Made by a program: the position numbers and the translations under genes
Source: a virus
Taxonomy: Duplodnaviria > Heunggongvirae > Uroviricota > Caudoviricetes
DNA length: 64,000 bases
Strand: one strand, 5' to 3'
IMG/VR virus record: IMGVR_UViG_3300021399_000096
In this document: positions 50,930 to 64,000 of the stretch, piece by piece
Position numbering within the stretch: position 1 is the first letter of the stretch
How the letters are laid out: each line of letters begins with the position of its first letter
The notes under the pieces: model-generated
Seen by the model: only the letters and a program-made list of their open reading frames with translations
Told to the model about the DNA's origin: nothing
The model's database searches: none

Positions 50930-51133
50930 ATGTCAACGAATTGGAAAATATTTTTAGGTATTGTATTTGTTATAATTGGAATTCTATTATTTATGATTTT
51001 TGAAATTGCAATAGATAGCCATAATATTGCTATTGAAAACCAAAATAAAGTAGATTCACTTGAACATAAGATTGTTTTATTAGAAGAAATGCAAAAACAA
51101 AATACAACAATTAAAGTAATAATGGTGAAGTAA
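50930..51133 (+). CDS. Small membrane protein.
   Basis: TM helix IFLGIVFVIIGILLFMIFEIAI. Confidence 0.35.
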   Translation: MSTNWKIFLGIVFVIIGILLFMIFEIAIDSHNIAIENQNKVDSLEHKIVLLEEMQKQNTTIKVIMVK

Positions 51134-51136
51134 GTT

Positions 51137-51499
51137 ATGACAAAGCCAGAAAAAACAATGGAACAATTCGAGAAATTATCTCAAGATAAAAAAGATAGAA
51201 TTGTAAAACATCATCTTGAAAGACTTGAACAAGAAGCTAAGAATATTGAAAAGAGAGAACAATTGTTAGCAGATCCAAACCAAAATAAACTAGCAAAAGA
51301 ACTTCAAAACCGATTGGTTCAATGTTGTATTGACTATATTAAAGAAACTGGAGATACAAATATTGATCGAGTAACATTTACTGTAGATGCATTGCAAGAA
51401 TCTTCAAAATATGGAAGTTGGCAACCATGCACGGATTCTACATGTGAATTAGAAAAATTGACAGATGATGGATATGAAACTATAAGTTTTAGTGCGTAA
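51137..51499 (+). CDS. Hypothetical protein.
   Basis: Intact ORF. Confidence 0.4.
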   Translation: MTKPEKTMEQFEKLSQDKKDRIVKHHLERLEQEAKNIEKREQLLADPNQNKLAKELQNRLVQCCIDYIKETGDTNIDRVTFTVDALQESSKYGSWQPCTDSTCELEKLTDDGYETISFSA

Positions 51500-51502
51500 G
51501 AA

Positions 51503-51536
51503 AAGGTTGAAAAATTAATTCCAACCTTTGTTTTTT
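51503..51536. terminator. Bidirectional terminator hairpin between convergent genes.
   Basis: Stem aaggttg / caacctt flanked by an A-run upstream and a T-run downstream. Confidence 0.55.
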
Positions 51537-52695
51537 AATCTTCTTCATCAAAACACCATTTTAATGTATGAACATCAGATGTTGCATTAAATAGCCGTTT
51601 ATAATCATCAAAATCATATAATGTAATTTTGCTTTTATAAAAACGTCCAACAAAGTTTCCAGCTTTTTGTCTATATACATAATATAATTCTACTTCAGAA
51701 TTATCAAAAAGCTCAAAAGTTACTTTAGCCTAATCTATAGTTCCCTGAGGAACCATTTTATATCTATATCTTTGAGTTCTATATTCTTTTACTGGTGCAG
51801 AATCAATTAATTCAATTTTATAAGAATTAATTTTATTATTCTAATGTATATATTTTTTAAGATTTTCTGGGAATATTTCAGAATGTGCGGCTTCATTAAA
51901 TCCACCCTTTCCGTCATATTCTTGAAGATCATCTATTAATTCTTTTATATCTTCAGGAATATTATATGTTGCATATTTTCTTCTATATGCTTCAAGCTGT
52001 GCATCATTTAATATATTCAACTCATATATTCTATCTTTAAATGCTTTAACTGCTTCTTTCCAACCTAATGTATTTGCAATAATATATCTGGCAACTATTT
52101 TATTATTATCTTTGCATGAATTTGCAACTCTTTCTGGATTTGAATGTCTATTTTTATAATCAATCATCTTCATCCAGTCTCTTACAGTTGGGGCATATTC
52201 ATCAGTATTAGTTGCATCAACTTCCATATCAAATTTTCTTTCGGCATCTGCTAGTGCAAGTTGTAAATCATCATCCTTTTTAAAATTATATTCAACTTGT
52301 ATTTGCTGTATTGTTTGAATTTTAGAAGATATAATTTTAAATTCTTTATGTTTTTTAATATATTCTTGAATTTTCTATAAATCTTCTCTAATATTATAAT
52401 AACCAAACTAAGGAGAGATTGTTAGTCTTATAGGTTGATTTGAATATACCGAACCAATATAAAGAGTCAATTTGCCATAAGGTTCATATGTAAAACTATA
52501 AAATCTATTTGTTAAATTTGGAATAGATGTAAATTTTTTATAAATCCATTCCTGTATAGTCATTTTTAAAAATTGTTTAAGATCTGCTATATCTATATTA
52601 TGTTCAGGCGTGGCAGTTCTATACTCATTAAGAGCGGTTTTTACTTGCTTAGCAACTGACCTCATTATGTTTTCATATAATATATTTTTATTCAT
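51535..52695 (-). CDS. Leader-family paralog of about 386 aa with four in-frame TAG codons at 52408, 52375, 51841 and 51730.
   Basis: Track ORFs 52408-52695 and 51841-52227 lie in one frame. The whole interval 51538-52695 has no TAA or TGA in that frame. The N-terminus MNKNILYENIMRSVAKQVKTALNEY matches the family leader. The C-terminus reads ...HTLKWCFDEED. Confidence 0.55.
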
Positions 52696-52793
52696 AATTT
52701 TAATAATAATTTTTCAATATATTTATTAAAAAATGAAACAATTTTATTATTACTTATAAAATATTTAAACACAAAAAATAATTTAAAGAAAAT

Positions 52794-53111
52794 ATGAAAA
52801 CATTAATTGTAAAAGCGACAACACAAGACAGAGAAAAAATTACTACATTTATTAAAAAACTAGAAAAATACGCAGACCGTCAAATTAAAGATGCAGTTAT
52901 TTGTACACGTTATCTTAATACCGATAATTACAATACTATTACTGGTGAATTGAAAGATGCAACTAGTTTAGATGACTATGATTTGTTTATTATAGGTTCA
53001 GTAAATCCAACTCTTGAGGTTCTTTCACTTCAAACTATCAATCGTGCACATACTCTTGTTTGTGAAGATAATGATCTTGATTCTGCTAAAAACTTTGTTA
53101 TTATGATCTAA
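52794..53111 (+). CDS. Hypothetical protein.
   Basis: Intact ORF. Confidence 0.35.
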   Translation: MKTLIVKATTQDREKITTFIKKLEKYADRQIKDAVICTRYLNTDNYNTITGELKDATSLDDYDLFIIGSVNPTLEVLSLQTINRAHTLVCEDNDLDSAKNFVIMI

Positions 53112-53121
53112 TAAGATATAT

Positions 53122-54222
53122 ATGAATTATAATTATCCAAATATAGAAGAATCAAGAAACAAAATAAATGATTTGTTTAATGGAAAATCTATAGTATATT
53201 TTCCAATTGTTTCTATGCAAAACAGAGAAACTGGAAATTATAAATTAGATCAAGATGGAAATGTTAATAGATTTATTACATTTTTTTCAAAATGCAACAC
53301 AATGAAACAATTATATATTACACTTCCATCTAATAAAGAAAGCTGCAAATATTATACAGATTTTACTAAATCTAAAAATAATATTACAACAATTTATAAT
53401 ACTAATTTTGGACAACATGCATTAGATCAAAGAGTAAATAAAGATATTATTACTGATCAATATAATGCAAGTAAAGAAATAATAGATCATTCTGATATTA
53501 TAATAGTTGAAAGTCAAGGATTGGCAAATTTGATATTGTCTAATAATCAAAATAAAACCATTATATATTGGTGCCCAGTTTCAGTAACTAATAAAAAATC
53601 TAGATCATTTATTGAGCAATATCGAGAAATAGATAAAGAACTGTTTAATAAAGTAAATTATATAATTGTTGTATCTCCAGAACAATATGATTATTTGATA
53701 GAATTAGGAATCAATTCAGAAAAAATATTATATTATTATGAATTGATGGATCGAAGTCTCCCAGTTTTTAATCGCTATAATCATATAGATACAATATCAT
53801 CTAAGAAAATAATATATCTTCCATTCAGACTTACAGATGAAGGTTACAAATCTGAACAAATTTTAGATATTTTAGAACAATTATCTATTAAATACCCAAA
53901 TAAATTTGTTATTGTTTATTCGGATCCAAATAATTCAAAATTCGAGAGAGTAACAAAAAATCCAAATTTATATTTTAAAATATCTTCAGACAGAGATACA
54001 TATTATTCATATTTGGATTCCAAAAATGTATTGATTCCATATTTTGAAGATATTAATTATGTTAATCATGCATCAATTCATGAGTTTAATAATGAGCAAT
54101 CTAAATGTACAGTTCTATTAAACAATACTGAATATCATGCATATAATATAAAACGAAAAGATATATTATATATTGACTTCGAAGACCTTTATAAAAATTT
54201 AGAGAAATTTATAAATGAATAA
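53122..54222 (+). CDS. Hypothetical protein, possibly a glycosyltransferase-like Rossmann-fold protein.
   Basis: Intact ORF. It alternates beta-alpha patterns, but no diagnostic motif is seen. Confidence 0.35.
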   Translation: MNYNYPNIEESRNKINDLFNGKSIVYFPIVSMQNRETGNYKLDQDGNVNRFITFFSKCNTMKQLYITLPSNKESCKYYTDFTKSKNNITTIYNTNFGQHALDQRVNKDIITDQYNASKEIIDHSDIIIVESQGLANLILSNNQNKTIIYWCPVSVTNKKSRSFIEQYREIDKELFNKVNYIIVVSPEQYDYLIELGINSEKILYYYELMDRSLPVFNRYNHIDTISSKKIIYLPFRLTDEGYKSEQILDILEQLSIKYPNKFVIVYSDPNNSKFERVTKNPNLYFKISSDRDTYYSYLDSKNVLIPYFEDINYVNHASIHEFNNEQSKCTVLLNNTEYHAYNIKRKDILYIDFEDLYKNLEKFINE

Positions 54223-55246
54223 GAATAAAATAATTTGTGGACCGTGTTCAGCAGAAACTAGAGAACAAATCTTAGAAACTGCTATGTAGCTGACATCTTT
54301 AGGATATTATAATTTTAGAGCTGGTGTATGGAAGCCAAGAACTAAACCAGGCGGTTTTGAAGGTCATGGCGAAGAAGCATTAAAATGGTTGGTAGAAGCC
54401 AGAAAACTATATAATATTATTCCATATGTTGAAGTTGCAAATCCATCTCATGTTGAATTATGTAAAAAATATGGAATTAATCATTTGTGGGTTGGTGCAA
54501 GAACATCATCAGATCCATTTGCCACTCAAGAACTTGCTAATTCATTAGTAGATTTTGATTGTGAAGTTTTAGTTAAAAATCCGGTTTCTGCTGATTTAGA
54601 ATTATGGATTGGTGCAATTCAAAGAATCAAAAATGCCGGTGTAAAAACAGTTAAAGCAATTCATAGAGGATTTTCTGATTATAATGAAAAGATTTATAGA
54701 AATAGTCCAATATGGACAATTCCTCTTGAATTAAAATCAAGAATGCCTGAATTAGAAATATATTGTGATCCATCACATATATCTGGAAATTCTCAATTGA
54801 TTCCAAGTTTAATAAATCAAGCATATAATTATGGATTTGATGGATTTATTATTGAATCTCATTGTGATCCAAAAGCAGCTTGGACTGATGCAAAACAACA
54901 ATTGGTTCCATCTGATATGAATACATTAATTTCAGCATTGGAAGAAAAACCAGAAATTTCTTTGGATGAGTATGATAAATTATTATTAAGTTCATATCGT
55001 GAAACTATTAATAATATTGATACGCAACTAATTAAATTCTTTAGTGAGCGAATGAAAATTAGTAAAGAAATTGGAGAATTGAAAGGTGAACATAATATGC
55101 CAGCTTTACAATATGACAGATGGAAAGAATTGTTATCAAAAAATATTGAGTTAGGTAAAACATATAATTTAGATGAAGAATTTATTTCAAAGATTTGGAA
55201 TATTATTCATGAGGAATCTATTAAAATTCAATCAACACAAAAATAA
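54215..55246 (+). CDS. 3-deoxy-7-phosphoheptulonate (DAHP) synthase, KDO8PS-like class I-beta, fused to a C-terminal chorismate mutase. It has one in-frame TAG at 54287-54289.
   Basis: The N-terminus MNKNKIICGPCSAETREQILETAM[TAG]LTSLG...PRTKPGGFEGHGEEALKWL lies upstream of track ORF 54389-55246 in the same frame. IAGPCS-type motif, CDPSH, and a C-terminal AroQ-class CM segment LIKFFSERMKISKEIGELK are present. Confidence 0.7.
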
Positions 55247-55259
55247 AAAATATTAATAT

Positions 55260-56369
55260 ATGAATTTATATAAAGTAGGATGTAATTTTGATTTTGAACT
55301 AATTAAAATAGTCAAAAATCTAAATGAAAAATATAAAGGCAAAGCCCAAGTAAAAGAATTTTTTGGATCTGATGCGGCACATGAAGAAATCACAGCTAGA
55401 CCAGGTTGGAGACTTCCAGATATTTCAATGACCGATTTAGAAAAATTTGTAAAAGAAGCTAAAGAAGCTGGAATATTGTTTAATTATACAATGAATAGTA
55501 TTCAACCATATGGAAGCAAAATTGAAATGATCAATCATAAACAAGATATTCAAAATTTTGTTAAATGGCTTGAAGAAATTGGTGTATATCGTATTACAAT
55601 TGCAAATCCAATGATGGCATTGTTTATTCGTGAAGTATCTAATATTGAATTGGAATGTTCAACTATAATGCATATTGATACTGTTACTCAACTAAAATAT
55701 TATCATGAGACTTTTGGAATTAATAAATTCTGTTGTTCTATTCTTAAGAATCGTAATAAAAAATTCTTAGAGAATGCTGCAAAATATTGTAATGATAATG
55801 GTTTAATATTTGAGCTGCTTTGTCAAGAATTTTGTGGAGTTGCTGGCGAGGATAAAAATGGTGTACCATATGCAACACATTGTGCTTTTAGAGATTCTTG
55901 TTATTTGTGCCATGCAACTAATAGAACTAAAGATGATTCAATGGCATATAATAATTATCCAATGGGATATTGTATGATGGCCAGAGCTAAGAACGAACAA
56001 AATTGGTTAAGAATGAGATGGATTCGTCCAGAAGATCAAAAAGTATATAATGAAATTGGAATTAATTATTTCAAAGTGAGCGGAAGAACTGGAACTACTG
56101 AATATTTAAAAACCGTATTAGAGGCATACATGTCTGAAAACTTTGACGGAAATCTATTAACATTATGGAAGCCTCTTCAAACAATTTTCTCAAAAGAAGC
56201 AGAATTAACATATCAACATCCAGAATATATTGATAATAAAAAACTAGATGGTTTTATAGATCATTGGTTCAAAGGCGATGGATTTGAATGTGAAAATGAA
56301 ATGTGTGGAGTGACATGTAAATATTGCGAAAATTTTTGGAACTCTCATTTTAAAAAAGATGTTGAATAA
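55260..56369 (+). CDS. Hypothetical Cys-rich protein embedded in the aromatic-pathway cluster.
   Basis: Intact ORF with CQEFCG, HCAFRDSCYLCH and CENEMCGVTCKYCE clusters. There is no confident family assignment. Confidence 0.4.
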   Translation: MNLYKVGCNFDFELIKIVKNLNEKYKGKAQVKEFFGSDAAHEEITARPGWRLPDISMTDLEKFVKEAKEAGILFNYTMNSIQPYGSKIEMINHKQDIQNFVKWLEEIGVYRITIANPMMALFIREVSNIELECSTIMHIDTVTQLKYYHETFGINKFCCSILKNRNKKFLENAAKYCNDNGLIFELLCQEFCGVAGEDKNGVPYATHCAFRDSCYLCHATNRTKDDSMAYNNYPMGYCMMARAKNEQNWLRMRWIRPEDQKVYNEIGINYFKVSGRTGTTEYLKTVLEAYMSENFDGNLLTLWKPLQTIFSKEAELTYQHPEYIDNKKLDGFIDHWFKGDGFECENEMCGVTCKYCENFWNSHFKKDVE

Positions 56370-56375
56370 TTAAAA

Positions 56376-56404
56376 AGAACCATTAAAACTAATGGTTCTT
56401 TTTG
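56376..56404 (+). terminator. Rho-independent terminator.
   Basis: Stem agaaccatt / aatggttct followed by a T-run. Confidence 0.65.
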
Positions 56405-56436
56405 CTATAAAATATACAAAATTAATTAAATTAGTA

Positions 56437-56967
56437 ATGACAAATTTATTTGTTATAGAAGGTCAAGATAGAGCCGGTAAAGATACATTACTTCATGATT
56501 TAGAAAAAATAGGATTAACAATATTTAGTCCAGATACAAGTTATCTTCCAAATTATCATAATGCTGATGAATTTAGAGCTGCATTAAAATTATATTTGGA
56601 AAAACAAACTAATGATATGATTAATCTAAATGTAAAAGATTTATATATTGCAAGGTATCAATTGAGTGAATATGTTTATGCTGAATTATTTAATCGACCA
56701 AATTTGTTTGAAGATTATATTAATGGTATATTAAAGGATCATTTTAAAATCAAAAACATTATTTTATTATGGGATACATATCAAGATTATTTGGATAGAT
56801 TAAAAATGATTAATGATGATTATATTGAATATACTGAAGAAGATTTTAATAAAATTAAAAATTTATATTTAAAATATAAACAACCTAATGATGTTGTTAT
56901 TTATGTAAAAACAAATACAACTCGTGAAGATTTAATAACAAAAGCAAAGTAGATAATATGCATGTAA
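56437..56967 (+). CDS. Deoxynucleoside monophosphate kinase, T4 gp1-like / thymidylate kinase-like P-loop kinase. It reads through a TAG at 56950-56952.
   Basis: VIEGQDRAGKDTL resembles T4 gp1 LSGVKRSGKDT and Tmk EGxDGAGKTT. The start is moved to the ATG after the terminator. Confidence 0.5.
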
Positions 56968-57470
56968 GAACATATGGCCATCATGGTTTTGGATCAAAAT
57001 TATTTGATGGAGAATTATCAGAAAAAACTATTTTAGATTTTTTAAGTAAATTAGCTATTGGTGATTGGACATCTGCTAATAATTTGCCAATTATTGGTTA
57101 TTTAGATGGAATTGTATTAAAGCCACATATATATTCTCAATTTTCAAAACCATATACAAGCAGAAACAAATTGAGAACTGGATTTCATACATTAAAACTA
57201 ATTGGACGCATAATAAATTTGAGAGCTGCCACTGGTTCCTGTACAGAAATAGAATTTGACAATGAAGAAGATGCATTAAAGATATGGCAAATGAAATTTC
57301 CAAATGCAGAAATTTGTACAAATGACAATTATATATTTGGAAATATAATAAATGGAAAGGAAGCTGGATTTAAATTTAATGGAAATATATTTGAAATGCC
57401 AGAATGGGACATTAATGTAATTAAAACCCATGGTTATGCAAGAATATATATTGGAAATGCAATTATCTAA
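56958..57470 (+). CDS. Hypothetical protein.
   Basis: Intact ORF. Confidence 0.4.
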   Translation: MHVRTYGHHGFGSKLFDGELSEKTILDFLSKLAIGDWTSANNLPIIGYLDGIVLKPHIYSQFSKPYTSRNKLRTGFHTLKLIGRIINLRAATGSCTEIEFDNEEDALKIWQMKFPNAEICTNDNYIFGNIINGKEAGFKFNGNIFEMPEWDINVIKTHGYARIYIGNAII

Positions 57471-57486
57471 AATAATTAATTAGAAC

Positions 57487-58473
57487 ATGAATTTTGAAGA
57501 AACAATAAAGAAATATATAAATGAACCAAATACTTTTGTATTTGTGGATCAAAATGTTTATAATTTTTGGAAAGATGGATTAGAATTGAATAATGTAATA
57601 ATTATAAAATCATCTGAAGAAAATAAAACATTAAAAACTATTGAAGAACTTTATAGTAAAGTTATGGAAGTTGGTGCTAATAGAGCATCAACTTTTATTG
57701 GAATTGGTGGAGGCATAGTGACAGATATGGTTGGGTATTTAGCTTCTACTTATATGCGTGGTATAAAATTTAAATTTATTCCAACTACTTTATTAGCAAT
57801 GGTGGATGCGGCAATTGGAGGAAAGAATGGCGTAAATTTCAATGGATATAAAAATATGATAGGAACTATTAACCAACCATCTGATGTTCTTGTATATACA
57901 GAATTTTTAGAAACCTTGCCAATTGAAGAAATATATTCGGCTTTTGGAGAAATATTAAAATATGGAATTGGCTTTGACAAAGATATATTTGATATATTAG
58001 AATCACATACTATTACTGAAATAATAAATGACAAAGAACTTTTATCAGAACTAATAGATAAATGCATTTATATAAAGAAAAATATAGTTAAACAAGATGA
58101 AACTGAGCATGAATTGAATGGGCGTCGTCTTTTGAATCTTGGACATACAATGGGACACGCACTTGAAAAATTCTATTCAGAAAATAAGCAATATTCAGAA
58201 TTAAAACATCATGGTTATGCAGTAATATTAGGATTATATTATATTGCTAGATTTATTGAAGACGAAACATATAAAAAACAGGTTATAAAATTATTAAACA
58301 AATATATTAGTGAAATTGGATTTGAAATTGAAGATATAGAACAATTATACAAAGATTCTATTAAATATATGATTAATGACAAAAAGAAAATAGATAATCA
58401 TTTGGTTAATTTTATAATTCCAATTTCAAAAGGAGAATGTAAAGAAAAAATAATAGATACTAATTCATTATGA
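57487..58473 (+). CDS. aroB: 3-dehydroquinate synthase.
   Basis: GIGGGIVTDMVGYLASTYMRGIKFKFIPTTLLAMVDAAIGGKNGVNF matches the AroB nucleotide-binding and metal-binding region. Confidence 0.8.
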   Translation: MNFEETIKKYINEPNTFVFVDQNVYNFWKDGLELNNVIIIKSSEENKTLKTIEELYSKVMEVGANRASTFIGIGGGIVTDMVGYLASTYMRGIKFKFIPTTLLAMVDAAIGGKNGVNFNGYKNMIGTINQPSDVLVYTEFLETLPIEEIYSAFGEILKYGIGFDKDIFDILESHTITEIINDKELLSELIDKCIYIKKNIVKQDETEHELNGRRLLNLGHTMGHALEKFYSENKQYSELKHHGYAVILGLYYIARFIEDETYKKQVIKLLNKYISEIGFEIEDIEQLYKDSIKYMINDKKKIDNHLVNFIIPISKGECKEKIIDTNSL

Positions 58474-58964
58474 TATTCTTTTTTATAGGATATATGGGCT
58501 GTGGAAAATCATATGTGGTTAATAAACTTGCTAATGATTTTAAAGATGCCAAAGTTATTGATATGGATTCAGAAATTGAAAAGCAAGAAGGAAAATCAAT
58601 AACTGAAATATTTGAAACAAAGGGTGAAAAATATTTTAGGAAGAAAGAAACTAAATTTATAGAATCTTTAATTGGATCTAAACCACAAGAAATAATATTT
58701 GTGGCAACTGGCGGTGGAGCACCAATTAAAAATATAGATTTAATGAATGAGATAGGAACTACAATTTATATAAAACTAACCCCAGAAGAAATATATAATA
58801 ATTTAAAGAATGATGATTTAAACAAAAGGCCATTACTAAAAAATCTTAGTGATGAAGAACTTATGAATAAAATCAAAAATGATTTAAAGAAACGAGAAAA
58901 GTATTATAAAAAAGCTAAATACACATATGAAGAAACCAAAAATTCTAATTTTAAATGGCCCTAA
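58470..58964 (+). CDS. aroK: Shikimate kinase.
   Basis: Walker A FFIGYMGCGKS, with ATGGG in the LID region, and a small size of 164 aa. Confidence 0.7.
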   Translation: MIFFFIGYMGCGKSYVVNKLANDFKDAKVIDMDSEIEKQEGKSITEIFETKGEKYFRKKETKFIESLIGSKPQEIIFVATGGGAPIKNIDLMNEIGTTIYIKLTPEEIYNNLKNDDLNKRPLLKNLSDEELMNKIKNDLKKREKYYKKAKYTYEETKNSNFKWP

Positions 58965-60756
58965 TCTAAATTATTTAGGAAAACGAGAACCGGATATATA
59001 TGGCAAAGGATCTTTTATTGATTATTTGAATAATCTTAGAAATCAATATAAAGATATAGATATTAAATATTTCCAAAATAATATTGAGGGAGAATTAATC
59101 AATAAACTTTATGAAGTGAATGAATTTAAAAACTATATTGGTGTAGTTTTTAATGCTGGAGCATATACTCATACATCAATTGCACTTCATGATTGTATAA
59201 AGGCAATTAGTATTCCAGTTATTGAGGTTCATATATCTAATGTAGCAGCCAGAGAAGATTATAGAAAGGTTTCTTATTTGTCTGATGTTTGTAAAGGAAC
59301 AATAACTGGATTTGGTTATGATTCATATAAATTAGGAATTGAGTATTTAGCTAGTAAAATAGATAAGAAAATATATAAACCACTTGAATTAGTAATGCCA
59401 ACATCTAAAAGTGAATTACAAAGAGCATTATTAATTGGAGCTTGTGAAAATACTAAAGTATCTGTTTTAGCATTAAATATAAATTTTCCATTATGTGATG
59501 ATGTATATTCATGTTTAAATACATTATCAAATATGGATTGCAAATCTGCTTTATTAGAAAACAGAATTGTAATTCATGGTGGAAATATTATCAATAGCGG
59601 AAAAGAATATAATGTAAATGTTGGAGAATCTGGAACAACTCTTAGAATGCTAATTGGCATTATGATATTTTCTAAATCTAAAATTACTATTCATCGTGAA
59701 GGAACTTTGGCAAAAAGAAATATTGCATATGCAGAAACATTGGCAAATACTTTTGGAGCTAAATTAGAATATAATGGAGATGATGTAATATTATATGGCT
59801 TACAACATGAAGAGAATAAAAGTACTTTTGGAGATATTTTATCTAAACATGAATTTATATTAGATGGTTCAAAATCATCTCAATACATTTCAGGAATTTT
59901 AATTGGATTTACATTTTGTAATTTATTCAAAGAAATAAATTTATCAATCAAAAATGTAGTATCTCGAGAATATATTGATATAACAAAGACAATGTTGCAA
60001 ACAAATAATAACATCATCAATATTGATAAAAGTGATAATAATGATATGAATTTATATTTGCGTTTTGATATAGAATCAATTGCTCAATCAAGATACAAAC
60101 AAATTATAATAAATCCAGATTTTAGTTCTATAGCGGCAATTACTACAGCAGCATATGGATTAAAAGTTGACAATTTTAAAATAACTCAAAACCCATCTAT
60201 AGGATATTTGCCAGATTTATCTATGTGTGAACAACCAGATAAAATATTTTTAGGAATTTTAAAAGAACATAATTTATTAAATATTGAACTTAATGGATTT
60301 ATGAAAACAGAAATGGAGATAACATATAATGGACAGAATGAAACTCCATTTGAGATATCAATTAAACAATTCCCAGATTTATTTCCATATTTGGCAACTA
60401 TTGCAATATTATCTAATAGAGGCATATATATAATTCATGATATAGATAGATTAGCTAATAAAGAAAGTAATAGAGCTTTAGCTATATTAAATGAATTTAA
60501 TAAATTTGGTGCTAATTGTACTATTGAAAATAATGATTTTATCATTAAACCATTAAACAAAGAATTATTAATTCCAGACAATTATATAATTAATACATAT
60601 AATGATCATAGAATTGCAATGGCTTTAGCAATATTAATATTGTCAATAACTAATAATTTTGACAAAATAAAATTTGATAATGAAAAATGTCTGAATAAAA
60701 GCTACCCATCTTTTATGGAAGATCTGAAAAAATTATTTGAATACAAAAATGCATAA
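58927..60756 (+). CDS. aroA: Bifunctional type II 3-dehydroquinate dehydratase (N-terminal) fused to EPSP synthase (C-terminal).
   Basis: ILILNGPNLNYLGKREPDIYG and HISNV are AroQ type II motifs. GESGTTLRMLIG, the KSSQYISGILIG-like segment and NDHRIAMALAIL are EPSP synthase motifs. Confidence 0.8.
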   Translation: MKKPKILILNGPNLNYLGKREPDIYGKGSFIDYLNNLRNQYKDIDIKYFQNNIEGELINKLYEVNEFKNYIGVVFNAGAYTHTSIALHDCIKAISIPVIEVHISNVAAREDYRKVSYLSDVCKGTITGFGYDSYKLGIEYLASKIDKKIYKPLELVMPTSKSELQRALLIGACENTKVSVLALNINFPLCDDVYSCLNTLSNMDCKSALLENRIVIHGGNIINSGKEYNVNVGESGTTLRMLIGIMIFSKSKITIHREGTLAKRNIAYAETLANTFGAKLEYNGDDVILYGLQHEENKSTFGDILSKHEFILDGSKSSQYISGILIGFTFCNLFKEINLSIKNVVSREYIDITKTMLQTNNNIINIDKSDNNDMNLYLRFDIESIAQSRYKQIIINPDFSSIAAITTAAYGLKVDNFKITQNPSIGYLPDLSMCEQPDKIFLGILKEHNLLNIELNGFMKTEMEITYNGQNETPFEISIKQFPDLFPYLATIAILSNRGIYIIHDIDRLANKESNRALAILNEFNKFGANCTIENNDFIIKPLNKELLIPDNYIINTYNDHRIAMALAILILSITNNFDKIKFDNEKCLNKSYPSFMEDLKKLFEYKNA

Positions 60757-61714
60757 TAGTTTTGGACAAAATATTAAAATAGAAATTTATGGAGGTTCAC
60801 ATACTAAAACTTTAGGAATTAAAGTATATGGACTTCCAAAAGATTTTACAATAGAATTATCAGAATTTGAATTTGATTTAAGCAGGCGGCGTCCAGGTGC
60901 ATTAGGGACCACTAATAGAATTGAATCAGACATTCCGTGTTTAATATGGAATGATGATAATTTACAGATAGAATTTTTGAATGAAAACATTGATGATAGT
61001 GCATATTTGAAATTTGTGGATCATCCACGTCCATCTCATGCAGATTTAGTTCAATATAAAAAATATGGAACAGAATATAATATGTATGGTGGAGGAATGG
61101 CAAGTGGAAGAATGACATTGCCATTAGTTGCTCTTGGAGTAATATGTAAAAAACTATTAAAAGAAAAATATCCAAATATTTCTATAGATGCAAATATTAT
61201 TCAAATCAAAGATGAAACCAATCCAGATAATTTTGAATCTATTATTTCAAAGGCAATTAAAGAAAAAACTTCATTGGGTGCTATTATCAAATGTGTAGTT
61301 TCTAATATGCCAAAATATGTTGGAGAACCATTTTTTGATTCATTAGAAAGTATTATATCTCATTTAGTATTTAGTATTCCGGGAATTAAAGGAATAGAAT
61401 TTGGAGATGGATTTGGTGGAGTTCTAAAAACTGGAATAGAACGAAATGATTTGATTATTGATAAAGATGGAAAAACATTAACAAATAATGAAGGTGGAAT
61501 AAATGGCGGAATCAGTAATGGAATGCCAGTAGAATTTAATGTAGCAGTAAAACCTACTGCATCTATATATAATCCACAAGATACTTTTAATTTCAAAGAT
61601 AATAAAATAGAATCATTACAAATAACTGGACGTCATGATATTTGTTTTGCAAGACGGGTTTCGGTAATTATTGAAGCCATTACAGCATATGCAATATTAG
61701 AATTAATTAGTTGA
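60737..61714 (+). CDS. aroC: Chorismate synthase.
   Basis: FGQNIKIEIYGGSHT, DLSRRRPG, GGGMASGR and ITGRHDICFA match AroC blocks. Confidence 0.75.
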   Translation: MNTKMHNSFGQNIKIEIYGGSHTKTLGIKVYGLPKDFTIELSEFEFDLSRRRPGALGTTNRIESDIPCLIWNDDNLQIEFLNENIDDSAYLKFVDHPRPSHADLVQYKKYGTEYNMYGGGMASGRMTLPLVALGVICKKLLKEKYPNISIDANIIQIKDETNPDNFESIISKAIKEKTSLGAIIKCVVSNMPKYVGEPFFDSLESIISHLVFSIPGIKGIEFGDGFGGVLKTGIERNDLIIDKDGKTLTNNEGGINGGISNGMPVEFNVAVKPTASIYNPQDTFNFKDNKIESLQITGRHDICFARRVSVIIEAITAYAILELIS

Positions 61715-62475
61715 TTATGAAGAAATATGGTTTAATAGGAAAAAATATTAGTTATTCATTATCTAAAGAAATATTTGATAATAATTGTTTTAAAGATAGT
61801 GAATATTTTTTATATAGCATTTCAGAAGATGAAATCACTAAAGAATTTTTAAATCAGTTTAATGGACTGAATGTAACGATTCCATATAAAAATGTGGTAG
61901 GACAATTTCTTGATGAAATTAGAATCCCAAAAATAAATGGAGTTGAATTTAATGCAATTAATTGTATATCTAATGAAAATGGAAAATTGATTGGATATAA
62001 TACTGATGTATATGGAATAGAAAAAACATTAGACCAATTTATCAAATCTGATAAAAAAGCATTAATATGTGGAAATGGAGGAGCATCTGAAGCACTTCAA
62101 TATTATTTTACTAGTAATAATATAAAATATATTGTGGTAACTAGAAGTGAATATACTCCAATTTCATGTTTTGGCTTTAGTATAACATATGATGAATTGT
62201 TTGAATGCAATTCAGAGTTTTTCGAAAATATCAATATTGTTGTTAATGCAACTCCAGTAGGAACAATAAATTATCTAGGCAAAGTAAATATTCCATATGA
62301 AAAATTTAAAAATATTGATATTGCATTTGATTTAGTTTATAATCCATGGGAAACAGAATTTTTAAAAACTTTTAAAGATTTAGGAAAACAAATAATAAAT
62401 GGGTACACAATGCTTCAAAATCAAGCATTAAAGTCATATAAAATTTGGAAATTGCTGAAAAACAAATCCATTTAA
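61711..62475 (+). CDS. aroE: Shikimate dehydrogenase.
   Basis: The N-terminus YGLIGKNISYSLSKEIF is a substrate-binding motif. GYNTDVYG and GNGGASEA (NADP-binding) are present. Confidence 0.65.
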   Translation: MIMKKYGLIGKNISYSLSKEIFDNNCFKDSEYFLYSISEDEITKEFLNQFNGLNVTIPYKNVVGQFLDEIRIPKINGVEFNAINCISNENGKLIGYNTDVYGIEKTLDQFIKSDKKALICGNGGASEALQYYFTSNNIKYIVVTRSEYTPISCFGFSITYDELFECNSEFFENINIVVNATPVGTINYLGKVNIPYEKFKNIDIAFDLVYNPWETEFLKTFKDLGKQIINGYTMLQNQALKSYKIWKLLKNKSI

Positions 62476-62514
62476 AAACTCTATAATAGTTAGAAAAAGA
62501 AATAAAATATCAAA

Positions 62515-63189
62515 ATGGAAACTAATTTGAAGATTAAGATTAATACAATGTTTCAAATGCTTGATGATTTAATTGATAGTAAGGAATACAATCAAATTAA
62601 AGATTATGCATTTAATATTTGGAAAGAAACTGGAAAATTCCCTCATTTTATTTTAGCTGGTGTAGGAAAGAATTGGTATATTTGTGAAAAAGTAGAAAAG
62701 ACATTTATTTCTATGGGATTGAAATGTACAGCATTAGATTGCACACATGCATTACATGGTGATTTAGGTTTAATTACTTTGACAGATGAACCAAAGATCA
62801 TTATTTTTATTTCTAAATCAGGAACAACAGAAGAACTTATAAAGCTTGTAAAGATTTGCAATTATCTTAAAAATGAAAATAGAATTAAAAATAGTTTGTT
62901 TGTATCATTTTATTTGAATGTTGAAGCTGCTGAAAAGTATAATGATTTATATGATATTTGTTTACATCCAGATATTACTAAATATAATGGTATGCATCTT
63001 TCTGAATTTGATTCCAGAAATTTGGTTCCAAGTTTATCAATTAATATTATGCAATTGACACTGGATTCTCTTGGAGTTGCATTATTTGAAGCAGATAAAA
63101 AATTAATAGAAAATTATAAATATAACCATTTAGCTGGTAATAATGGGAAAATACTTGGTGGTGATAAAATTATAAATTCTATAAAATGA
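62515..63189 (+). CDS. SIS-domain phosphosugar isomerase, GmhA/KpsF-like.
   Basis: HFILAGVGKNWYICEKV...LHGDLGLIT...IIIFISKSGTTEEL is the SIS-domain pattern. Confidence 0.5.
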   Translation: METNLKIKINTMFQMLDDLIDSKEYNQIKDYAFNIWKETGKFPHFILAGVGKNWYICEKVEKTFISMGLKCTALDCTHALHGDLGLITLTDEPKIIIFISKSGTTEELIKLVKICNYLKNENRIKNSLFVSFYLNVEAAEKYNDLYDICLHPDITKYNGMHLSEFDSRNLVPSLSINIMQLTLDSLGVALFEADKKLIENYKYNHLAGNNGKILGGDKIINSIK

Positions 63190-63250
63190 AAACATAAACA
63201 TTTTAAATTTTATCAATATAATTATTATATTAAGAAACTAATTTGAAAAT

Positions 63251-64000
63251 ATGAGTAAGACAAATATCGTTATTGTGGCTGGCGGTCTTGGAACTCGTTT
63301 TAATGAGTTATCGGTATTTCCAAAGATTTTATTGCCAACAAGTACACATAATTCTATCTTGAATGAAATTCAGGATAGTTTTTGTGATTATACAGGAACC
63401 ATATCATTAATTATCAATGAGAAATTTTATGATATGGTTGACAATTATATTAAAGTCAATGGAATTAAAAATATAAATCTTATTAAATCTACAAAGATTA
63501 ATGGTTCTTTGAACAGTATAATGGATGTTTATAATGAACTTCCAAAAAAGAATGTGTTGTTTATTTGGTCTGATTTGATTTTTGATAAAGAAACTTCATC
63601 ATTTATTTTAGATACATGTGAAAAAACCAATAAAGATTATATTGTATTTTGTTATGAAAATGGACAATACCGATATAATTTAACTGATGATTTAGTTTTT
63701 GAAGCTAATGTAAAGGATGGAAACATTCCTGGCATTTACTATATTAATAATTTTGAATATGTGTATAATAATTTGAATATGCTTCAAAAGAAAGATAATT
63801 TAGATTTATTAGATTTTATTATTAATGATTTTGAACATACAGATTGTAATCTTGAAAAACAAAATATTGAAAAATTAACAGAATATCGTGATCTTGATAC
63901 TTATATTGATATATTAAAAAATCATAAAAGAGAATTGGCACAAACTAGATTCTTTAATAAACTTATTATTGATAAAGAAAATAAAATTGTTACTAAACAA
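63251..64000 (+). CDS. Sugar-phosphate nucleotidyltransferase. The gene is partial and continues past the window end.
   Basis: The N-terminus NIVIVAGGLGTRFNEL gives the GGxGTR(L/F) signature. The frame is open to position 64000. Confidence 0.5.
   Translation, partial: MSKTNIVIVAGGLGTRFNELSVFPKILLPTSTHNSILNEIQDSFCDYTGTISLIINEKFYDMVDNYIKVNGIKNINLIKSTKINGSLNSIMDVYNELPKKNVLFIWSDLIFDKETSSFILDTCEKTNKDYIVFCYENGQYRYNLTDDLVFEANVKDGNIPGIYYINNFEYVYNNLNMLQKKDNLDLLDFIINDFEHTDCNLEKQNIEKLTEYRDLDTYIDILKNHKRELAQTRFFNKLIIDKENKIVTKQ

What the first reader, a model, noticed from the sequence alone, without database searches (positions are those of the whole stretch)
54215..62475. Complete shikimate-to-chorismate (and prephenate) pathway encoded as a phage operon
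Eight enzymatic activities are encoded in one + strand block. They are DAHP synthase fused to chorismate mutase, 3-dehydroquinate synthase (aroB), shikimate kinase (aroK), a type II dehydroquinase fused to EPSP synthase (aroQ-aroA), chorismate synthase (aroC) and shikimate dehydrogenase (aroE). This covers all seven steps from PEP and E4P to chorismate, plus the first step toward Phe/Tyr. The block is interleaved with a Cys-rich unknown protein (55260-56369), a gp1-like kinase and another unknown. A full aromatic-amino-acid core pathway is an unusually large auxiliary metabolic module for a phage. The fusions (aroQ-aroA, DAHPS-CM) and the recoded TAG inside the DAHPS gene argue that the genes are adapted to the phage rather than a recent chunk of host DNA.
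Basis: partly seen in the sequence, partly recalled or inferred. Interest (0 to 1): 0.9.

Follow-up and report, generated by a model that had tools for sequence, protein, structure and literature searches.

The report
Phage shikimate pathway feeding DNA hydroxylation
A giant rumen phage really does carry all the genes needed to make prephenate from central metabolites, but they sit inside a DNA-modification gene cluster next to a U32-type enzyme, so their likely job is to supply the oxygen donor for making 5-hydroxycytosine DNA without O2, not to make amino acids.

Summary
Window 54215-62475 encodes DAHP synthase fused to chorismate mutase, AroB, AroK, AroQ-AroA, AroC and AroE. The genes are tightly packed, under purifying selection, and recur in more than 10 independent phage assemblies from sheep rumen and elsewhere. 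The in-frame TAG in the DAHPS gene is real and must be read through.

The interpretation needs changing in three respects.
- **The "Cys-rich unknown" (55260-56369)** is a U32-family protein, the homolog of RB69 gp50. Characterised U32 proteins (TrhP, RlhA, UbiU/V) carry out O2-independent, prephenate-dependent hydroxylations.
- **The block sits inside a homolog of the RB69-type arabinosyl-5-hydroxycytosine DNA cluster.** Present are a glycosyltransferase, a Tmk-like kinase, an A5P isomerase and AfhE-like and HAD-like genes. The O2/flavin-dependent ThyA-type 5hodCMP synthase is missing.
- **The gene distribution follows oxygen lifestyle.** Across 61 phage loci, U32 with the ThyA homolog (18 loci) never has DAHPS-CM. 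U32 without it (43 loci) has DAHPS-CM beside it in 16 and the full pathway in 8. The Acinetobacter and Pseudomonas phages checked have the ThyA homolog but no U32.

Best reading: the pathway supplies prephenate, consumed once per cytosine, to an anaerobic cytosine C5-hydroxylase. Both fusions pre-exist in gut bacteria and are not phage adaptations. No biochemistry was done.

The parts
52794..53111 (+). Small ORF (105 aa) of unknown function that opens the co-directional block.
   Evidence: No Pfam or PHROG hit. Conserved with the block: 92% identity in L004/L005 and 60% in L135. dN/dS 0.09.
53122..54222 (+). Glycosyltransferase-like protein (366 aa). Candidate DNA glycosyl (arabinosyl)-transferase.
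   Evidence: phrog_3891, 6e-19. 26% identical (8e-11) to Shewanella phage Thanatos TH1_063, whose counterpart in phiR1-RT (g046, RB69ORF047c) is the gene PMC13326640 assigns as arabinosyltransferase 1. 40% identical (6e-71) to the gene that follows DAHPS-CM in L007. A homolog is found beside U32 in most loci.
54215..55246 (+). DAHP synthase (type I-beta) fused to a C-terminal AroQ-type chorismate mutase. In-frame TAG at 54287-54289 (codon 25), read as an amino acid, probably Gln.
   Evidence: Pfam DAHP_synth_1 2e-31 and CM_2 5.7e-23. NCBIfam DAHPS models 1e-43 versus KDO8P synthase 5e-10. The TAG aligns with Q in L012, L020 and L021, and the GPCS motif is upstream of it. The nearest cellular relatives are Prevotella bifunctional DAH7PS/CM, 52-54% identical. 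dN/dS 0.06.
55260..56369 (+). U32-family Fe-S protein, homolog of RB69 gp50 (RB69ORF050c). Proposed O2-independent, prephenate-dependent cytosine C5-hydroxylase.
   Evidence: Pfam PF01136 36.6 bits, above the 22.4 cut-off. phrog_5757 1e-128. AF2 model pLDDT 90.4; the top PDB fold hit is the U32 protein 5d88, E 1e-8. hhalign against E. coli UbiU/UbiV/RlhA/TrhP: probability 87%, E 4e-6, with C208, C214 and C238 aligned to UbiU C169, C176 and C232. 49-52% identical to the U32-like genes of phiR1-RT (g050) and Thanatos (TH1_065). 38 of 43 diverse family members hit PF01136.
56392..56952 (+). Tmk-like P-loop nucleotide kinase (186 aa; 191 aa if the terminal TAG is read through to 56967). Proposed 5hodCMP kinase.
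   Evidence: phrog_761 thymidylate kinase 8e-10. A Tmk-like kinase is also present in the isolate clusters (RB69 gp45, DLP3 gp78; PMC13326640). Homologs lie within 10 kb of U32 in many loci that lack the ThyA homolog.
56958..57470 (+). Unknown 170-aa protein, found only in the clade with the full pathway.
   Evidence: No hit in Pfam, PHROGs or NCBIfam. The AF2 single-sequence model is unusable, pLDDT 33.5. 94-95% conserved in L005 and L063; dN/dS 0.16.
57487..58473 (+). 3-dehydroquinate synthase (AroB).
   Evidence: Pfam DHQ_synthase 5e-41 plus DHQS_C 3.5e-28. TIGR01357 2e-83. dN/dS 0.10.
58470..58964 (+). Shikimate kinase (AroK).
   Evidence: Pfam SKI 1.9e-31. NF010555 1.4e-35. A Walker A motif, GCGKS, is visible in the sequence.
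58927..60756 (+). Type II 3-dehydroquinate dehydratase fused to EPSP synthase (AroQ-AroA).
   Evidence: Pfam DHquinase_II 4.5e-52 plus EPSP_synthase 3.8e-39. NF003807 is above its cut-off. The fusion is rare: six full-length clusters among the listed hits of a 5.8-billion-protein search, five phage-like and one cellular. The cellular one is from Ruminococcaceae UBA1741 and relatives.
60749..61714 (+). Chorismate synthase (AroC). ATG start at 60749; an alternative TTG start at 60737.
   Evidence: Pfam Chorismate_synt 3e-79. TIGR00033 243.9 bits, above the 212.2 cut-off. Called as 321 aa in L059. dN/dS 0.07.
61717..62475 (+). Shikimate dehydrogenase (AroE). ATG start at 61717; an alternative TTG start at 61711.
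   Evidence: TIGR00507 aroE 7e-45 over residues 5-247. Pfam Shikimate_dh_N 5.6e-8. dN/dS 0.10.
62515..63189 (+). SIS-domain sugar-phosphate isomerase. Arabinose-5-phosphate isomerase-like, counterpart of RB69 gp55.
   Evidence: phrog_5670 arabinose 5-phosphate isomerase 9e-27. KpsF/GutQ family 1e-12. 30% identical to phiR1-RT g054, 4e-15.
63251..64000 (+). N-terminal part of an AfhE-like bifunctional sugar-1-P nucleotidyltransferase/kinase. It runs off the window; the full gene is 535 aa in L059.
   Evidence: tblastn match to phiR1-RT g053 and Thanatos TH1_060 at 63266-63964, 2e-8 to 4e-8. The full-length gene in L059 is followed by a 189-aa gene with a weak HAD-family (Hydrolase_3) hit and a Glyco_transf_25 gene.

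Best explanation
The block is a phage-encoded supply line for prephenate, embedded in a DNA hypermodification island.

Proposed mechanism:
- DAHPS-CM, AroB, AroQ-AroA, AroE, AroK and AroC convert PEP and erythrose-4-P to chorismate and then to prephenate.
- The adjacent U32-family Fe-S protein (RB69 gp50 homolog) uses prephenate as the oxygen-atom donor to hydroxylate C5 of cytosine without O2, most likely on dCMP. By analogy with UbiU/V, the reaction releases phenylpyruvate and CO2.
- The neighbouring Tmk-like kinase feeds 5-hydroxy-dCMP towards the triphosphate.
- After incorporation into DNA, the 5-OH is glycosylated. The sugar donor is made by the A5P isomerase, the AfhE-like enzyme and the HAD phosphatase, and is transferred by the glycosyltransferases of the same cluster.
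- One prephenate is spent per cytosine. A genome of at least 320 kb at 28% GC has about 90,000 cytosines per copy. An obligately anaerobic (rumen) phage that lacks the O2/flavin-dependent ThyA-type 5hodCMP synthase would therefore gain from carrying its own pathway.

Shown here: gene identities, synteny, co-occurrence, purifying selection, TAG recoding and habitat.

Inferred, not shown: prephenate use by this U32 protein, its substrate, and the chemical nature of the DNA modification.
For: 1. All pathway enzymes are identified by HMMs. They are under purifying selection between two phage lineages, dN/dS 0.06-0.25.

2. The Cys-rich protein is a U32 family member. Characterised U32 proteins act in prephenate-dependent, O2-independent hydroxylation: TrhP gives ho5U (PMC6599085), RlhA gives 5-hydroxycytidine (PMC5727448), and for UbiU/V prephenate is the O donor with phenylpyruvate as the proposed product (PMC10990095).

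3. In isolates its homolog, RB69 gp50, lies inside the gp45-gp55 arabinosyl-5-hydroxycytosine cluster. That paper gives it only a computed label, 'sugar or heterocycle reductase' (PMC13326640).

4. The window and its downstream flank contain homologs of the rest of that cluster: glycosyltransferase, Tmk-like kinase, A5P isomerase, AfhE, a weak HAD-family hit and further glycosyltransferases. No ThyA-family gene is found in the 64-kb window or in the 10-kb flanks (tblastn plus HMM with filters off).

5. Of 61 loci with the U32 gene, 18 carry the ThyA-type 5hodCMP synthase and none of those has DAHPS-CM. The other 43 lack it; 16 have DAHPS-CM beside or within about 1.5 kb of U32, and 8 have at least five aro genes. 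Fisher p = 0.0015, but the loci are not phylogenetically independent.

6. Lineages that have only DAHPS-CM with U32 (L007, L012, L016, L019-21, L029, L135) show that the conserved pairing is U32 with the prephenate-forming enzyme.

7. Among isolates, U32 is found in 222 phage records. The ten commonest host genera are all Enterobacterales, and Shewanella also appears. The ThyA-type synthase occurs in 343 records, including 57 Acinetobacter phages. In Acinetobacter DLP1 and Pseudomonas PspYZU05 the cluster is intact but has no U32. This three-state pattern mirrors TrhO/TrhP.

8. Contigs identical to the window come from sheep rumen metagenomes, an anoxic habitat.

9. No post-prephenate gene (PDT domain, aromatic aminotransferase) was found.

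10. The Prevotella-type DAH7PS-CM is feedback-inhibited by prephenate itself (PMC8408635). Consumption of prephenate would therefore pull flux through the pathway.
Against: - No biochemistry exists for any phage U32 protein. Direct hydroxylase activity has not been reconstituted even for TrhP or RlhA.
- Only about 84 kb of a genome of at least 320 kb was inspected. A ThyA-type or gp42-type enzyme could lie elsewhere.
- The glycosyltransferase and AfhE homologs are only 25-30% identical to the isolate proteins, so the acceptor base and the sugar may differ.
- The canonical four-Cys U32 motif is only partly alignable: three of four UbiU ligands, and the first spacing is X5 rather than X6.
- Many U32-only loci have no DAHPS-CM within 10 kb, so a phage-encoded supply is not obligatory.
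- Some enterobacterial phages appear to have the ThyA homolog without U32 (Escherichia: 177 versus 137 records).
- Two relevant papers could not be read and may already assign gp50 a role: He et al. 2026, Nat Chem Biol, and Mahler et al. 2025, Cell Host Microbe.
Confidence: 0.55

Rival explanations
1. Classical auxiliary metabolic module. The phage boosts chorismate and prephenate to raise Phe/Tyr (and Trp, folate, quinone) supply for virion protein synthesis. The neighbouring U32 and DNA-modification genes are unrelated neighbours.
For: The pathway is complete and under purifying selection. Host enzymes could finish Phe/Tyr synthesis. Phenylpyruvate, the expected by-product of U32 chemistry, is itself the Phe precursor.
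Against: No PDT domain or aromatic aminotransferase was detected in the window or its flanks, and no PDH, aminotransferase or Trp-branch gene appears in the other annotation. Related phages retain only DAHPS-CM, always close to U32. DAHPS-CM is never found with the O2-dependent ThyA-type synthase. The genes lie between the DNA-modification genes rather than beside them.
Confidence: 0.15
2. The U32 protein is a prephenate-dependent hydroxylase of RNA, not of DNA precursors: tRNA U34 as for TrhP, or rRNA C2501 as for RlhA. It would tune translation, for instance decoding in a TAG-recoded phage. The shikimate genes would still supply prephenate.
For: All characterised nucleic-acid U32 enzymes act on RNA. 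The window also encodes RF2 and a CCA-adding enzyme, so the phage manipulates translation.
Against: In the isolate loci the U32 gene lies inside the DNA-modification cluster, and in most metagenomic loci a glycosyltransferase homolog lies within 10 kb of it. No cmoA/cmoB-type gene or tRNA gene is found nearby. The anti-correlation with the ThyA-type cytosine hydroxylase is not explained by an RNA role.
Confidence: 0.12
3. The U32 protein acts on the sugar or on another step of glycosylation ('sugar or heterocycle reductase', as labelled in PMC13326640). Its link to DAHPS-CM would reflect some other use of a shikimate intermediate.
For: The label is given in Table 1 of PMC13326640. Thanatos, which has the U32 gene, carries a deoxypentose rather than arabinose.
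Against: RB69, which carries arabinose, and Thanatos, which carries a deoxypentose, both have U32. DLP3 carries arabinose and lacks it, so U32 does not track sugar type. The retained partner enzyme is specifically the one that makes prephenate, the co-substrate of U32 hydroxylases.
Confidence: 0.08
4. Assembly artefact: a piece of host chromosome joined to phage DNA.
For: None was found beyond the cellular ancestry of the genes.
Against: The same gene order, with phage genes on both sides, appears in independent assemblies from different samples and pipelines (L004-L006, L059-L063, L065, L139). GC content is uniform. A conserved in-frame TAG is present. The proteins are only 25-54% identical to the nearest cellular homologs.
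Confidence: 0.01

Closest known systems
RB69 / DLP3 / HY126 arabosyl-5-hydroxycytosine DNA hypermodification cluster (RB69 gp45-gp55; Afh genes). Sources: PMC13326640; He et al. 2026, Nat Chem Biol (not readable here).
   Same: Homologs are present of the U32-like gp50, the glycosyltransferase that corresponds to arabinosyltransferase 1, a Tmk-like nucleotide kinase, the A5P isomerase, the AfhE-type bifunctional kinase/pyrophosphorylase and (weakly) a HAD phosphatase. They lie in one co-directional cluster of a T4-like phage.
   Different: The defining ThyA-type, flavin- and O2-dependent 5hodCMP synthase is absent from the cluster and from 84 kb of inspected sequence. A complete shikimate plus chorismate mutase pathway is inserted among the cluster genes. 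The shared proteins are only 25-52% identical. The DNA chemistry of this phage is unknown.
Prephenate-dependent U32 hydroxylases: TrhP (tRNA ho5U34), RlhA (23S rRNA ho5C2501) and UbiU/UbiV (anaerobic ubiquinone synthesis).
   Same: Pfam U32 domain, U32 TIM-barrel fold and a conserved Cys cluster at the equivalent position. The gene is linked to a prephenate-forming enzyme. The taxonomic pattern of an O2-dependent route versus a prephenate-dependent route resembles TrhO/TrhP and UbiIHF/UbiUV.
   Different: This is a distinct, mainly phage-borne subfamily of about 360-aa proteins with an extra, nearly invariant C-terminal CX4CX3CX2C motif. It gives no hit to any NCBIfam U32 model. The proposed substrate is a deoxynucleotide, not RNA or a quinone. 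The co-substrate pathway is encoded next to the enzyme, which is not described for the cellular enzymes in the papers read here.
Bacteroidales bifunctional DAH7PS-CM (Prevotella nigrescens and Porphyromonas gingivalis type; PMC8408635).
   Same: Same domain order and length, 52-54% identity over the full length.
   Different: Encoded by a phage, carries a recoded TAG, and sits beside a U32 gene rather than in a cellular aromatic amino-acid context. Whether prephenate feedback is retained is unknown.
Phage auxiliary metabolic genes that supply precursors for DNA hypermodification, for example phage-encoded preQ0/7-deazaguanine pathways (from my own knowledge; not retrieved here).
   Same: A multi-step cellular biosynthetic pathway is carried by a phage to feed a DNA base modification.
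   Different: Here the pathway product is not incorporated into DNA. It is proposed to be consumed as an oxygen-atom donor. Seven to eight enzymatic steps of central aromatic metabolism are involved.

Membership tests
Shikimate pathway plus chorismate mutase (seven steps plus CM) | One recognisable enzyme for each step: DAHPS, DHQ synthase, DHQ dehydratase, shikimate dehydrogenase, shikimate kinase, EPSP synthase, chorismate synthase and CM. | tested here: met
   Pfam hits are above the gathering score for every domain. NCBIfam family matches cover the full lengths, although most fall below the equivalog cut-offs; AroC and AroQ are above them.
Shikimate pathway plus chorismate mutase (seven steps plus CM) | The enzymes are catalytically active. 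| not testable with these tools
   Indirect support only. dN/dS is 0.06-0.25. Motifs I recognise from the families are visible in the translations: GPCS, KPRT and DPSH in DAHPS; GGGxxxD, GGK and GHTxGHA in AroB; HISN in AroQ; RPSHAD and RHD in AroC; NTD and the Gly-rich loop in AroE. Complementation of E. coli aro mutants is needed.
Aromatic amino-acid biosynthesis module (AMG reading) | Presence of post-prephenate or Trp-branch enzymes (prephenate dehydratase or dehydrogenase, aromatic aminotransferase, TrpE/G). | tested here: not met
   tblastn with a CM-PDT protein and an aminotransferase found nothing in the window, L059, L139, L005, L063, L065 or L135. No such Pfam family appears among the ORFs scanned or the called genes. 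PDH and the Trp branch were covered only by these Pfam scans.
Peptidase U32 superfamily | Match to the PF01136 model and the U32 TIM-barrel fold. | tested here: met
   PF01136 36.6 bits versus a 22.4 cut-off, covering only profile positions 3-65. 38 of 43 diverse relatives hit PF01136, best E 9e-16. Foldseek top hit is 5d88, E 1e-8, TM-score (target) 0.70. hhalign against E. coli U32 proteins gives probability 87%.
Prephenate-dependent U32 hydroxylases (TrhP / RlhA / UbiU-V) | Four-cysteine [4Fe-4S] motif. | tested here: inconclusive
   C208, C214 and C238 align with UbiU C169, C176 and C232. The fourth ligand could be C192 or C217. C192 and C238 are invariant or nearly invariant across the wider family.
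Prephenate-dependent U32 hydroxylases (TrhP / RlhA / UbiU-V) | Activity requires prephenate and is independent of O2. | not testable with these tools
   Genomic proxy only. A DAHPS-CM gene lies within 10 kb of U32 in 16 of 43 loci lacking the ThyA homolog and in 0 of 18 loci that have it. The habitat is anoxic.
Arabinosyl-5-hydroxycytosine DNA modification cluster (RB69 gp45-55 / Afh) | ThyA-family, flavin-dependent 5hodCMP synthase. | tested here: not met
   tblastn and an HMM run with filters off found no ThyA-family ORF in the window (best E 0.32) or in the flanks. The one ThyA-family hit among the loci without a 5hodCMP-synthase homolog (L024) is an ordinary thymidylate synthase. The rest of the genome was not inspected.
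Arabinosyl-5-hydroxycytosine DNA modification cluster (RB69 gp45-55 / Afh) | Genes for the UDP-arabinose supply: A5P isomerase, AfhE kinase/pyrophosphorylase and AfhF HAD phosphatase. | tested here: met
   A5P isomerase: phrog_5670 9e-27. AfhE-like: tblastn 2e-8 in the window and 7e-14 in L004/L005. The HAD phosphatase match (Hydrolase_3) is weak and lies just outside the window, in L059.
Arabinosyl-5-hydroxycytosine DNA modification cluster (RB69 gp45-55 / Afh) | DNA glycosyltransferase(s) and a nucleotide kinase. | tested here: met
   53122-54222 matches Thanatos TH1_063 at 8e-11. The kinase matches phrog_761. A further Glyco_transf_25 gene lies downstream. Acceptor and sugar specificity are untested.
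Arabinosyl-5-hydroxycytosine DNA modification cluster (RB69 gp45-55 / Afh) | Virion DNA contains glycosylated 5-hydroxycytosine. | not testable with these tools
   Requires LC-MS of virion DNA or heterologous reconstitution.
TAG-recoded (code 15-like) phages | In-frame TAG in conserved genes, aligned with sense codons in homologs. | tested here: met
   DAHPS codon 25 aligns with Gln. TAGs lie inside the tail sheath gene and the gp23 major capsid gene. An RF2 gene, but no RF1 gene, was found in the window.
TAG-recoded (code 15-like) phages | Suppressor tRNA (anticodon CUA). | tested here: not met
   ARAGORN finds no tRNA in the 64-kb window. The rest of the genome was not available.

The most novel reading that the evidence does not exclude
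This would be the first O2-independent route to 5-hydroxycytosine DNA. A phage-specific U32 Fe-S enzyme hydroxylates (d)CMP using prephenate as a stoichiometric oxygen-atom donor. Obligately anaerobic jumbo phages have captured first DAHPS-CM and then the entire shikimate pathway to pay for it. The same idea assigns a function to RB69 gp50, as the anaerobic backup for gp48. It also predicts that RB69-type phages of enteric bacteria depend on host aro genes in the anoxic gut.
Probability: 0.5. Interest if true: 0.9.

Novelty: new variant of a known kind. Interest (0 to 1): 0.8.

Why it matters
If correct, the finding matters in five ways.
- It explains an unusually large auxiliary metabolic module, eight enzyme activities of central aromatic metabolism. 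No report of a complete shikimate pathway in a phage turned up in full-text searches.
- It extends prephenate-as-oxygen-donor chemistry, established in 2024 for ubiquinone, to DNA precursors.
- It offers a testable function for the uncharacterised U32 gene that is conserved in 222 sequenced T4-like phage records, including RB69-type coliphages being considered for therapy.
- It predicts that DNA hypermodification, and so evasion of restriction and CRISPR, depends on host or phage aromatic metabolism in anoxic habitats such as gut and rumen.
- It suggests that inhibitors of the shikimate pathway such as glyphosate (which targets EPSP synthase) could affect phage-host dynamics there.

Independently of the mechanism, the three-state distribution is a clean comparative-genomic signal that can be checked at scale: ThyA homolog only, both, or U32 only with or without DAHPS-CM.

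Tried and rejected
- **Viral-contig scan with AroC alone.** It found no relatives, because a single-protein query is too narrow. Relatives were reached instead through the U32 protein and through exact-protein look-ups.
- **PDB sequence search with the U32 profile.** No true hits. Fold search was needed. The afdb50 fold library was unavailable.
- **AF2 model of the 170-aa unknown (56958-57470).** pLDDT 33.5, unusable. Its function stays open. I considered a flavin reductase for chorismate synthase, but nothing supports it.
- **Promoter and terminator scan of 51000-64000.** Counts equal those of shuffled sequence, so it is uninformative in this AT-rich DNA.
- **tRNA scan for a TAG suppressor.** None in the window.
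- **KDO8P synthase working with the A5P isomerase.** Considered and rejected. DAHPS models score 1e-43 against 5e-10 for KDO8PS, the CM domain is retained, and the closest homologs are Prevotella DAH7PS-CM.
- **L024's ThyA-family gene as a hidden 5hodCMP synthase.** Considered and rejected. It is an ordinary thymidylate synthase.
- **Host misassembly.** Considered and rejected (see rival explanations).
- **Donor lineage of the aro genes.** Not resolved. DAHPS-CM points to Prevotella-like Bacteroidales. The AroQ-AroA architecture is seen in Clostridia, but at only 25-47% identity.
- **Unreadable papers.** He et al. 2026 (Nat Chem Biol) was requested and is not held. Mahler et al. 2025 (Cell Host Microbe) was not among the held papers returned by the searches.

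Full report
**1. The observation**

The + strand of window 52794-64000 is a tightly packed, co-directional run of genes; neighbours overlap or are separated by at most about 60 bases. Pfam assigns the following:
- 54215-55246: DAHP_synth_1 plus CM_2
- 57487-58473: 3-dehydroquinate synthase, both domains
- 58470-58964: shikimate kinase
- 58927-60756: type II dehydroquinase plus EPSP synthase
- 60737/60749-61714: chorismate synthase
- 61711/61717-62475: shikimate dehydrogenase

NCBIfam agrees over the full lengths. Most scores fall below the equivalog cut-offs, so these are divergent copies, not fresh host DNA. The DAHPS domain scores 1e-43 on DAHPS models against 5e-10 on KDO8P synthase.

**2. 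It is phage DNA, and the TAG is recoded**

- The window carries T4-like genes: gp32 SSB, primase, gp46/47, DNA polymerase, tail sheath and the gp23 capsid protein.
- GC content is uniform at 0.23-0.33.
- The in-frame stop in the DAHPS gene is TAG at 54287. The 24 codons before it include the conserved GPCS motif. In the DAHPS-CM of three more distant phages the TAG column is Gln.
- In-frame TAGs also occur in the sheath and capsid genes.
- The window encodes an RF2, with prfB above its cut-off.
- The same gene order recurs in independent assemblies (L004-L006, L059-L063, L065, L139), including a 320-kb contig. The identical AroQ-AroA protein occurs on a contig of 484.5 kb.
- Runs SRR873602 and SRR873610 are sheep rumen metagenomes (PMC4158751).
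- Between the window and L005 all twelve genes of the block have dN/dS of 0.06-0.25.

Misassembly is excluded for practical purposes.

**3.

The "Cys-rich unknown" (55260-56369) is a U32-family protein.
- PF01136 scores above the gathering threshold, and phrog_5757 'peptidase' gives 1e-128.
- A confident AF2 model (pLDDT 90.4) has the U32 protein 5d88 as its top PDB match.
- hhalign against E. coli UbiU, UbiV, RlhA and TrhP gives probability 87%. Phage C208, C214 and C238 fall on UbiU C169, C176 and C232.
- The family is large: 1392 representatives at 50% clustering. 38 of 43 sampled members hit PF01136, and a C-terminal CX4CX3CX2C motif is nearly invariant.

U32 proteins are the known players in O2-independent, prephenate-dependent hydroxylation.
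- TrhP makes ho5U in tRNA (PMC6599085).
- RlhA makes 5-hydroxycytidine in 23S rRNA (PMC5727448).
- For UbiU/V, prephenate was shown to be the oxygen donor. The proposed by-products are phenylpyruvate and CO2 (PMC10990095).

**4. The genomic neighbourhood is a DNA hypermodification cluster**

The U32 gene is similar, even at DNA level (about 65%), to the 'peptidase' gene of enterobacterial and Shewanella T4-like phages. This is RB69ORF050c, that is gp50.

In RB69 it lies within gp45-gp55, the cluster that makes arabinosylated 5-hydroxycytosine (PMC13326640):
- gp45: Tmk-like kinase
- gp46:47: arabinosyltransferase
- gp48: ThyA-homologous 5hodCMP synthase, which binds a flavin and takes its oxygen from O2
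- gp51: HAD phosphatase
- gp52:53: AfhE-type kinase/pyrophosphorylase
- gp55: A5P isomerase

That paper lists gp50 only as a 'sugar or heterocycle reductase' from fold matches and never mentions prephenate or U32.

In the window I find homologs of most of these:
- the glycosyltransferase, 53122-54222
- a Tmk-like kinase, 56392-56952
- the A5P isomerase, 62515-63189
- the AfhE-like gene, 63251 onwards
- just downstream in L059, a gene with a weak HAD-family hit and a GT25 glycosyltransferase

The shikimate genes are interleaved with these. What is missing is the ThyA-type synthase. Neither tblastn nor an HMM run with filters off finds any ThyA-family ORF in the 64-kb window or in the 10-kb flanks.

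**5. Comparative pattern**

I collected 61 loci that carry the U32 gene, each with up to 10 kb on either side.

| Loci | Number | With DAHPS-CM | With at least 5 aro genes |
|---|---|---|---|
| U32 plus ThyA-type synthase | 18 | 0 | 0 |
| U32 without it | 43 | 16 | 8 |

- Seventeen of the first 18 are T4-like loci of the isolate (enterobacterial/Shewanella) type with U32 about 50% identical to the window's; the 18th (L052) is a distant, high-GC locus. The other 43 are all metagenomic.
- In those 43 loci, DAHPS-CM lies beside or within about 1.5 kb of U32.
- Fisher p = 0.0015, but the loci are not independent.
- Lineages such as L007, L012, L016, L019-21 and L135 have only DAHPS-CM with U32. 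The conserved couple is therefore U32 plus the prephenate-forming enzyme, and the full pathway is a later elaboration.
- Starting instead from DAHPS-CM, the phage-like homolog P0249 (61% identical) again lies beside A5P isomerase, AfhE and U32.
- In the isolate database the U32 gene occurs in 222 records. The ten commonest host genera are all Enterobacterales, and Shewanella also appears.
- The ThyA-type synthase occurs in 343 records, including 57 Acinetobacter phages.
- In Acinetobacter phage DLP1 and Pseudomonas phage PspYZU05 the cluster is intact (A5P isomerase, AfhE, HAD, ThyA homolog, GT, kinase), with no U32 gene in it.

This gives three states:
- ThyA homolog only: the phages checked here infect Acinetobacter and Pseudomonas, non-fermenting aerobes (host physiology is from my own knowledge).
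- Both genes: phages of facultative anaerobes.
- U32 only: metagenomic phages, of which the window's own clade is from rumen.

This is the distribution described for TrhO and TrhP. By analogy it also matches the O2-dependent UbiI/H/F and the prephenate-dependent UbiU/V.

**6. Proposed mechanism**

- The phage pathway makes prephenate.
- The U32 protein uses it to hydroxylate cytosine C5 without O2, probably on dCMP given the adjacent kinase.
- The product is phosphorylated, incorporated into DNA and then glycosylated.

Prephenate is consumed stoichiometrically in the mechanism proposed for UbiU/V. A genome of at least 320 kb at 28% GC needs about 90,000 hydroxylations per copy, which is my arithmetic. 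That gives a reason to carry the whole pathway.

The Prevotella-type DAH7PS-CM is inhibited by prephenate itself rather than by the aromatic amino acids (PMC8408635). Consumption of prephenate would therefore pull flux; this is inference.

No PDT-domain or aromatic aminotransferase gene is present. This argues against an amino-acid purpose, although host enzymes could use the phenylpyruvate.

**7. The fusions**

- The DAHPS-CM fusion has full-length cellular homologs of the same architecture in Prevotella, 52-54% identical.
- The AroQ-AroA fusion is rare. Six full-length clusters appear among the listed hits of the protein search, and one is cellular. That one belongs to Ruminococcaceae UBA1741. 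Similar fusions occur in Acutalibacteraceae, Christensenellaceae and other gut Clostridia, at 25-47% identity to the phage genes.

The fusions are inherited from bacteria. They are not evidence of phage adaptation.

**8. Limits**

- There is no biochemistry.
- Only about a quarter or less of the genome was seen.
- The glycosyltransferase and AfhE homologs are distant.
- The fourth Fe-S ligand is uncertain.
- Many U32-only loci lack DAHPS-CM within 10 kb.
- Full-text searches found no report of a phage shikimate pathway, and none linking U32 or prephenate to phage DNA modification.

**9. Verdict**

The best explanation is a prephenate supply for an anaerobic U32-type cytosine hydroxylase within a glycosyl-5-hydroxycytosine DNA modification island, held at confidence about 0.55. 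It is a new variant of known kinds (U32 hydroxylation, 5hoC DNA clusters, phage AMGs) and is directly testable.

Noticed in passing
window 41227-42333 (+): Phage-encoded peptide chain release factor 2 (prfB TIGR00020 415 bits, above the 370 cut-off; the RF1 models score far lower). RF2 does not read UAG, so this fits the TAG recoding of late genes.
   Followed up: partly
window 3086-5020 and 5025-5798 (+): Two adjacent ORFs are readable only if TAG is sense (12 and 5 in-frame TAGs). They share a C-terminal domain (LALDDFDDEE...DLGLPSGTLWCKYNLG...). Neither has a Pfam hit.
   Followed up: partly
window 17199-18746 and 18779-20308 (+): The DNA polymerase is split into two ORFs in swapped order. 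The upstream ORF matches the C-terminal part of phrog_262 (positions 574-841). The downstream ORF matches the N-terminal part (positions 111-488).
   Followed up: no
window 7170-10478 and 23173-25080 (+): The tail sheath gene and the gp23-like major capsid gene each contain in-frame TAG codons (2 and 1). Replication genes in the window have none, which is the late-gene bias described for recoded phages.
   Followed up: partly
window 36520-37686, 30921-31583 and 33766-35223 (+): Other metabolic or translation genes: nicotinate phosphoribosyltransferase, an isochorismatase-family protein (probably nicotinamidase-like and unrelated to chorismate), and a tRNA CCA-adding enzyme.
   Followed up: no
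window 709-1632 (+); L139 10001-10924: A GT10 fucosyltransferase-like glycosyltransferase (FucT_N plus Glyco_transf_10 in the precomputed Pfam of the identical protein) lies next to the gp32 gene, far from the modification cluster.
   Followed up: no
L004/L005 11169-13194: In the 86%-identity sister lineage, an HNH endonuclease gene and a 276-aa ORF are inserted between the U32 gene and the kinase. This points to homing-endonuclease traffic within the cluster.
   Followed up: no
L063 4159-6958: Mosaicism within the operon. The AroA part is 50% and AroC 73% identical to the window, while the flanking genes are 90-97% identical. This suggests recombination between diverged phage copies of the pathway.
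   Followed up: no
window 52779-62514 (15 bases before each start codon of the block): No Shine-Dalgarno-like GGAGG is visible in the 15 bases before any of the twelve start codons of the block. Together with the Prevotella-like DAHPS-CM, this hints at a Bacteroidota host, but the host was not determined.
   Followed up: no
L024 5482-6348: One locus that lacks a 5hodCMP-synthase homolog (230-kb contig) carries an ordinary thymidylate synthase (TIGR03284 above its cut-off; Asn at the dUMP-specifying position) directly upstream of the glycosyltransferase.
   Followed up: partly
window 56950-56967: The kinase ORF ends at TAG (56950-56952). If TAG is sense it runs five codons further, to TAA at 56965-56967, and overlaps the next gene. 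Gene callers on identical contigs disagree (186 versus 191 aa).
   Followed up: no
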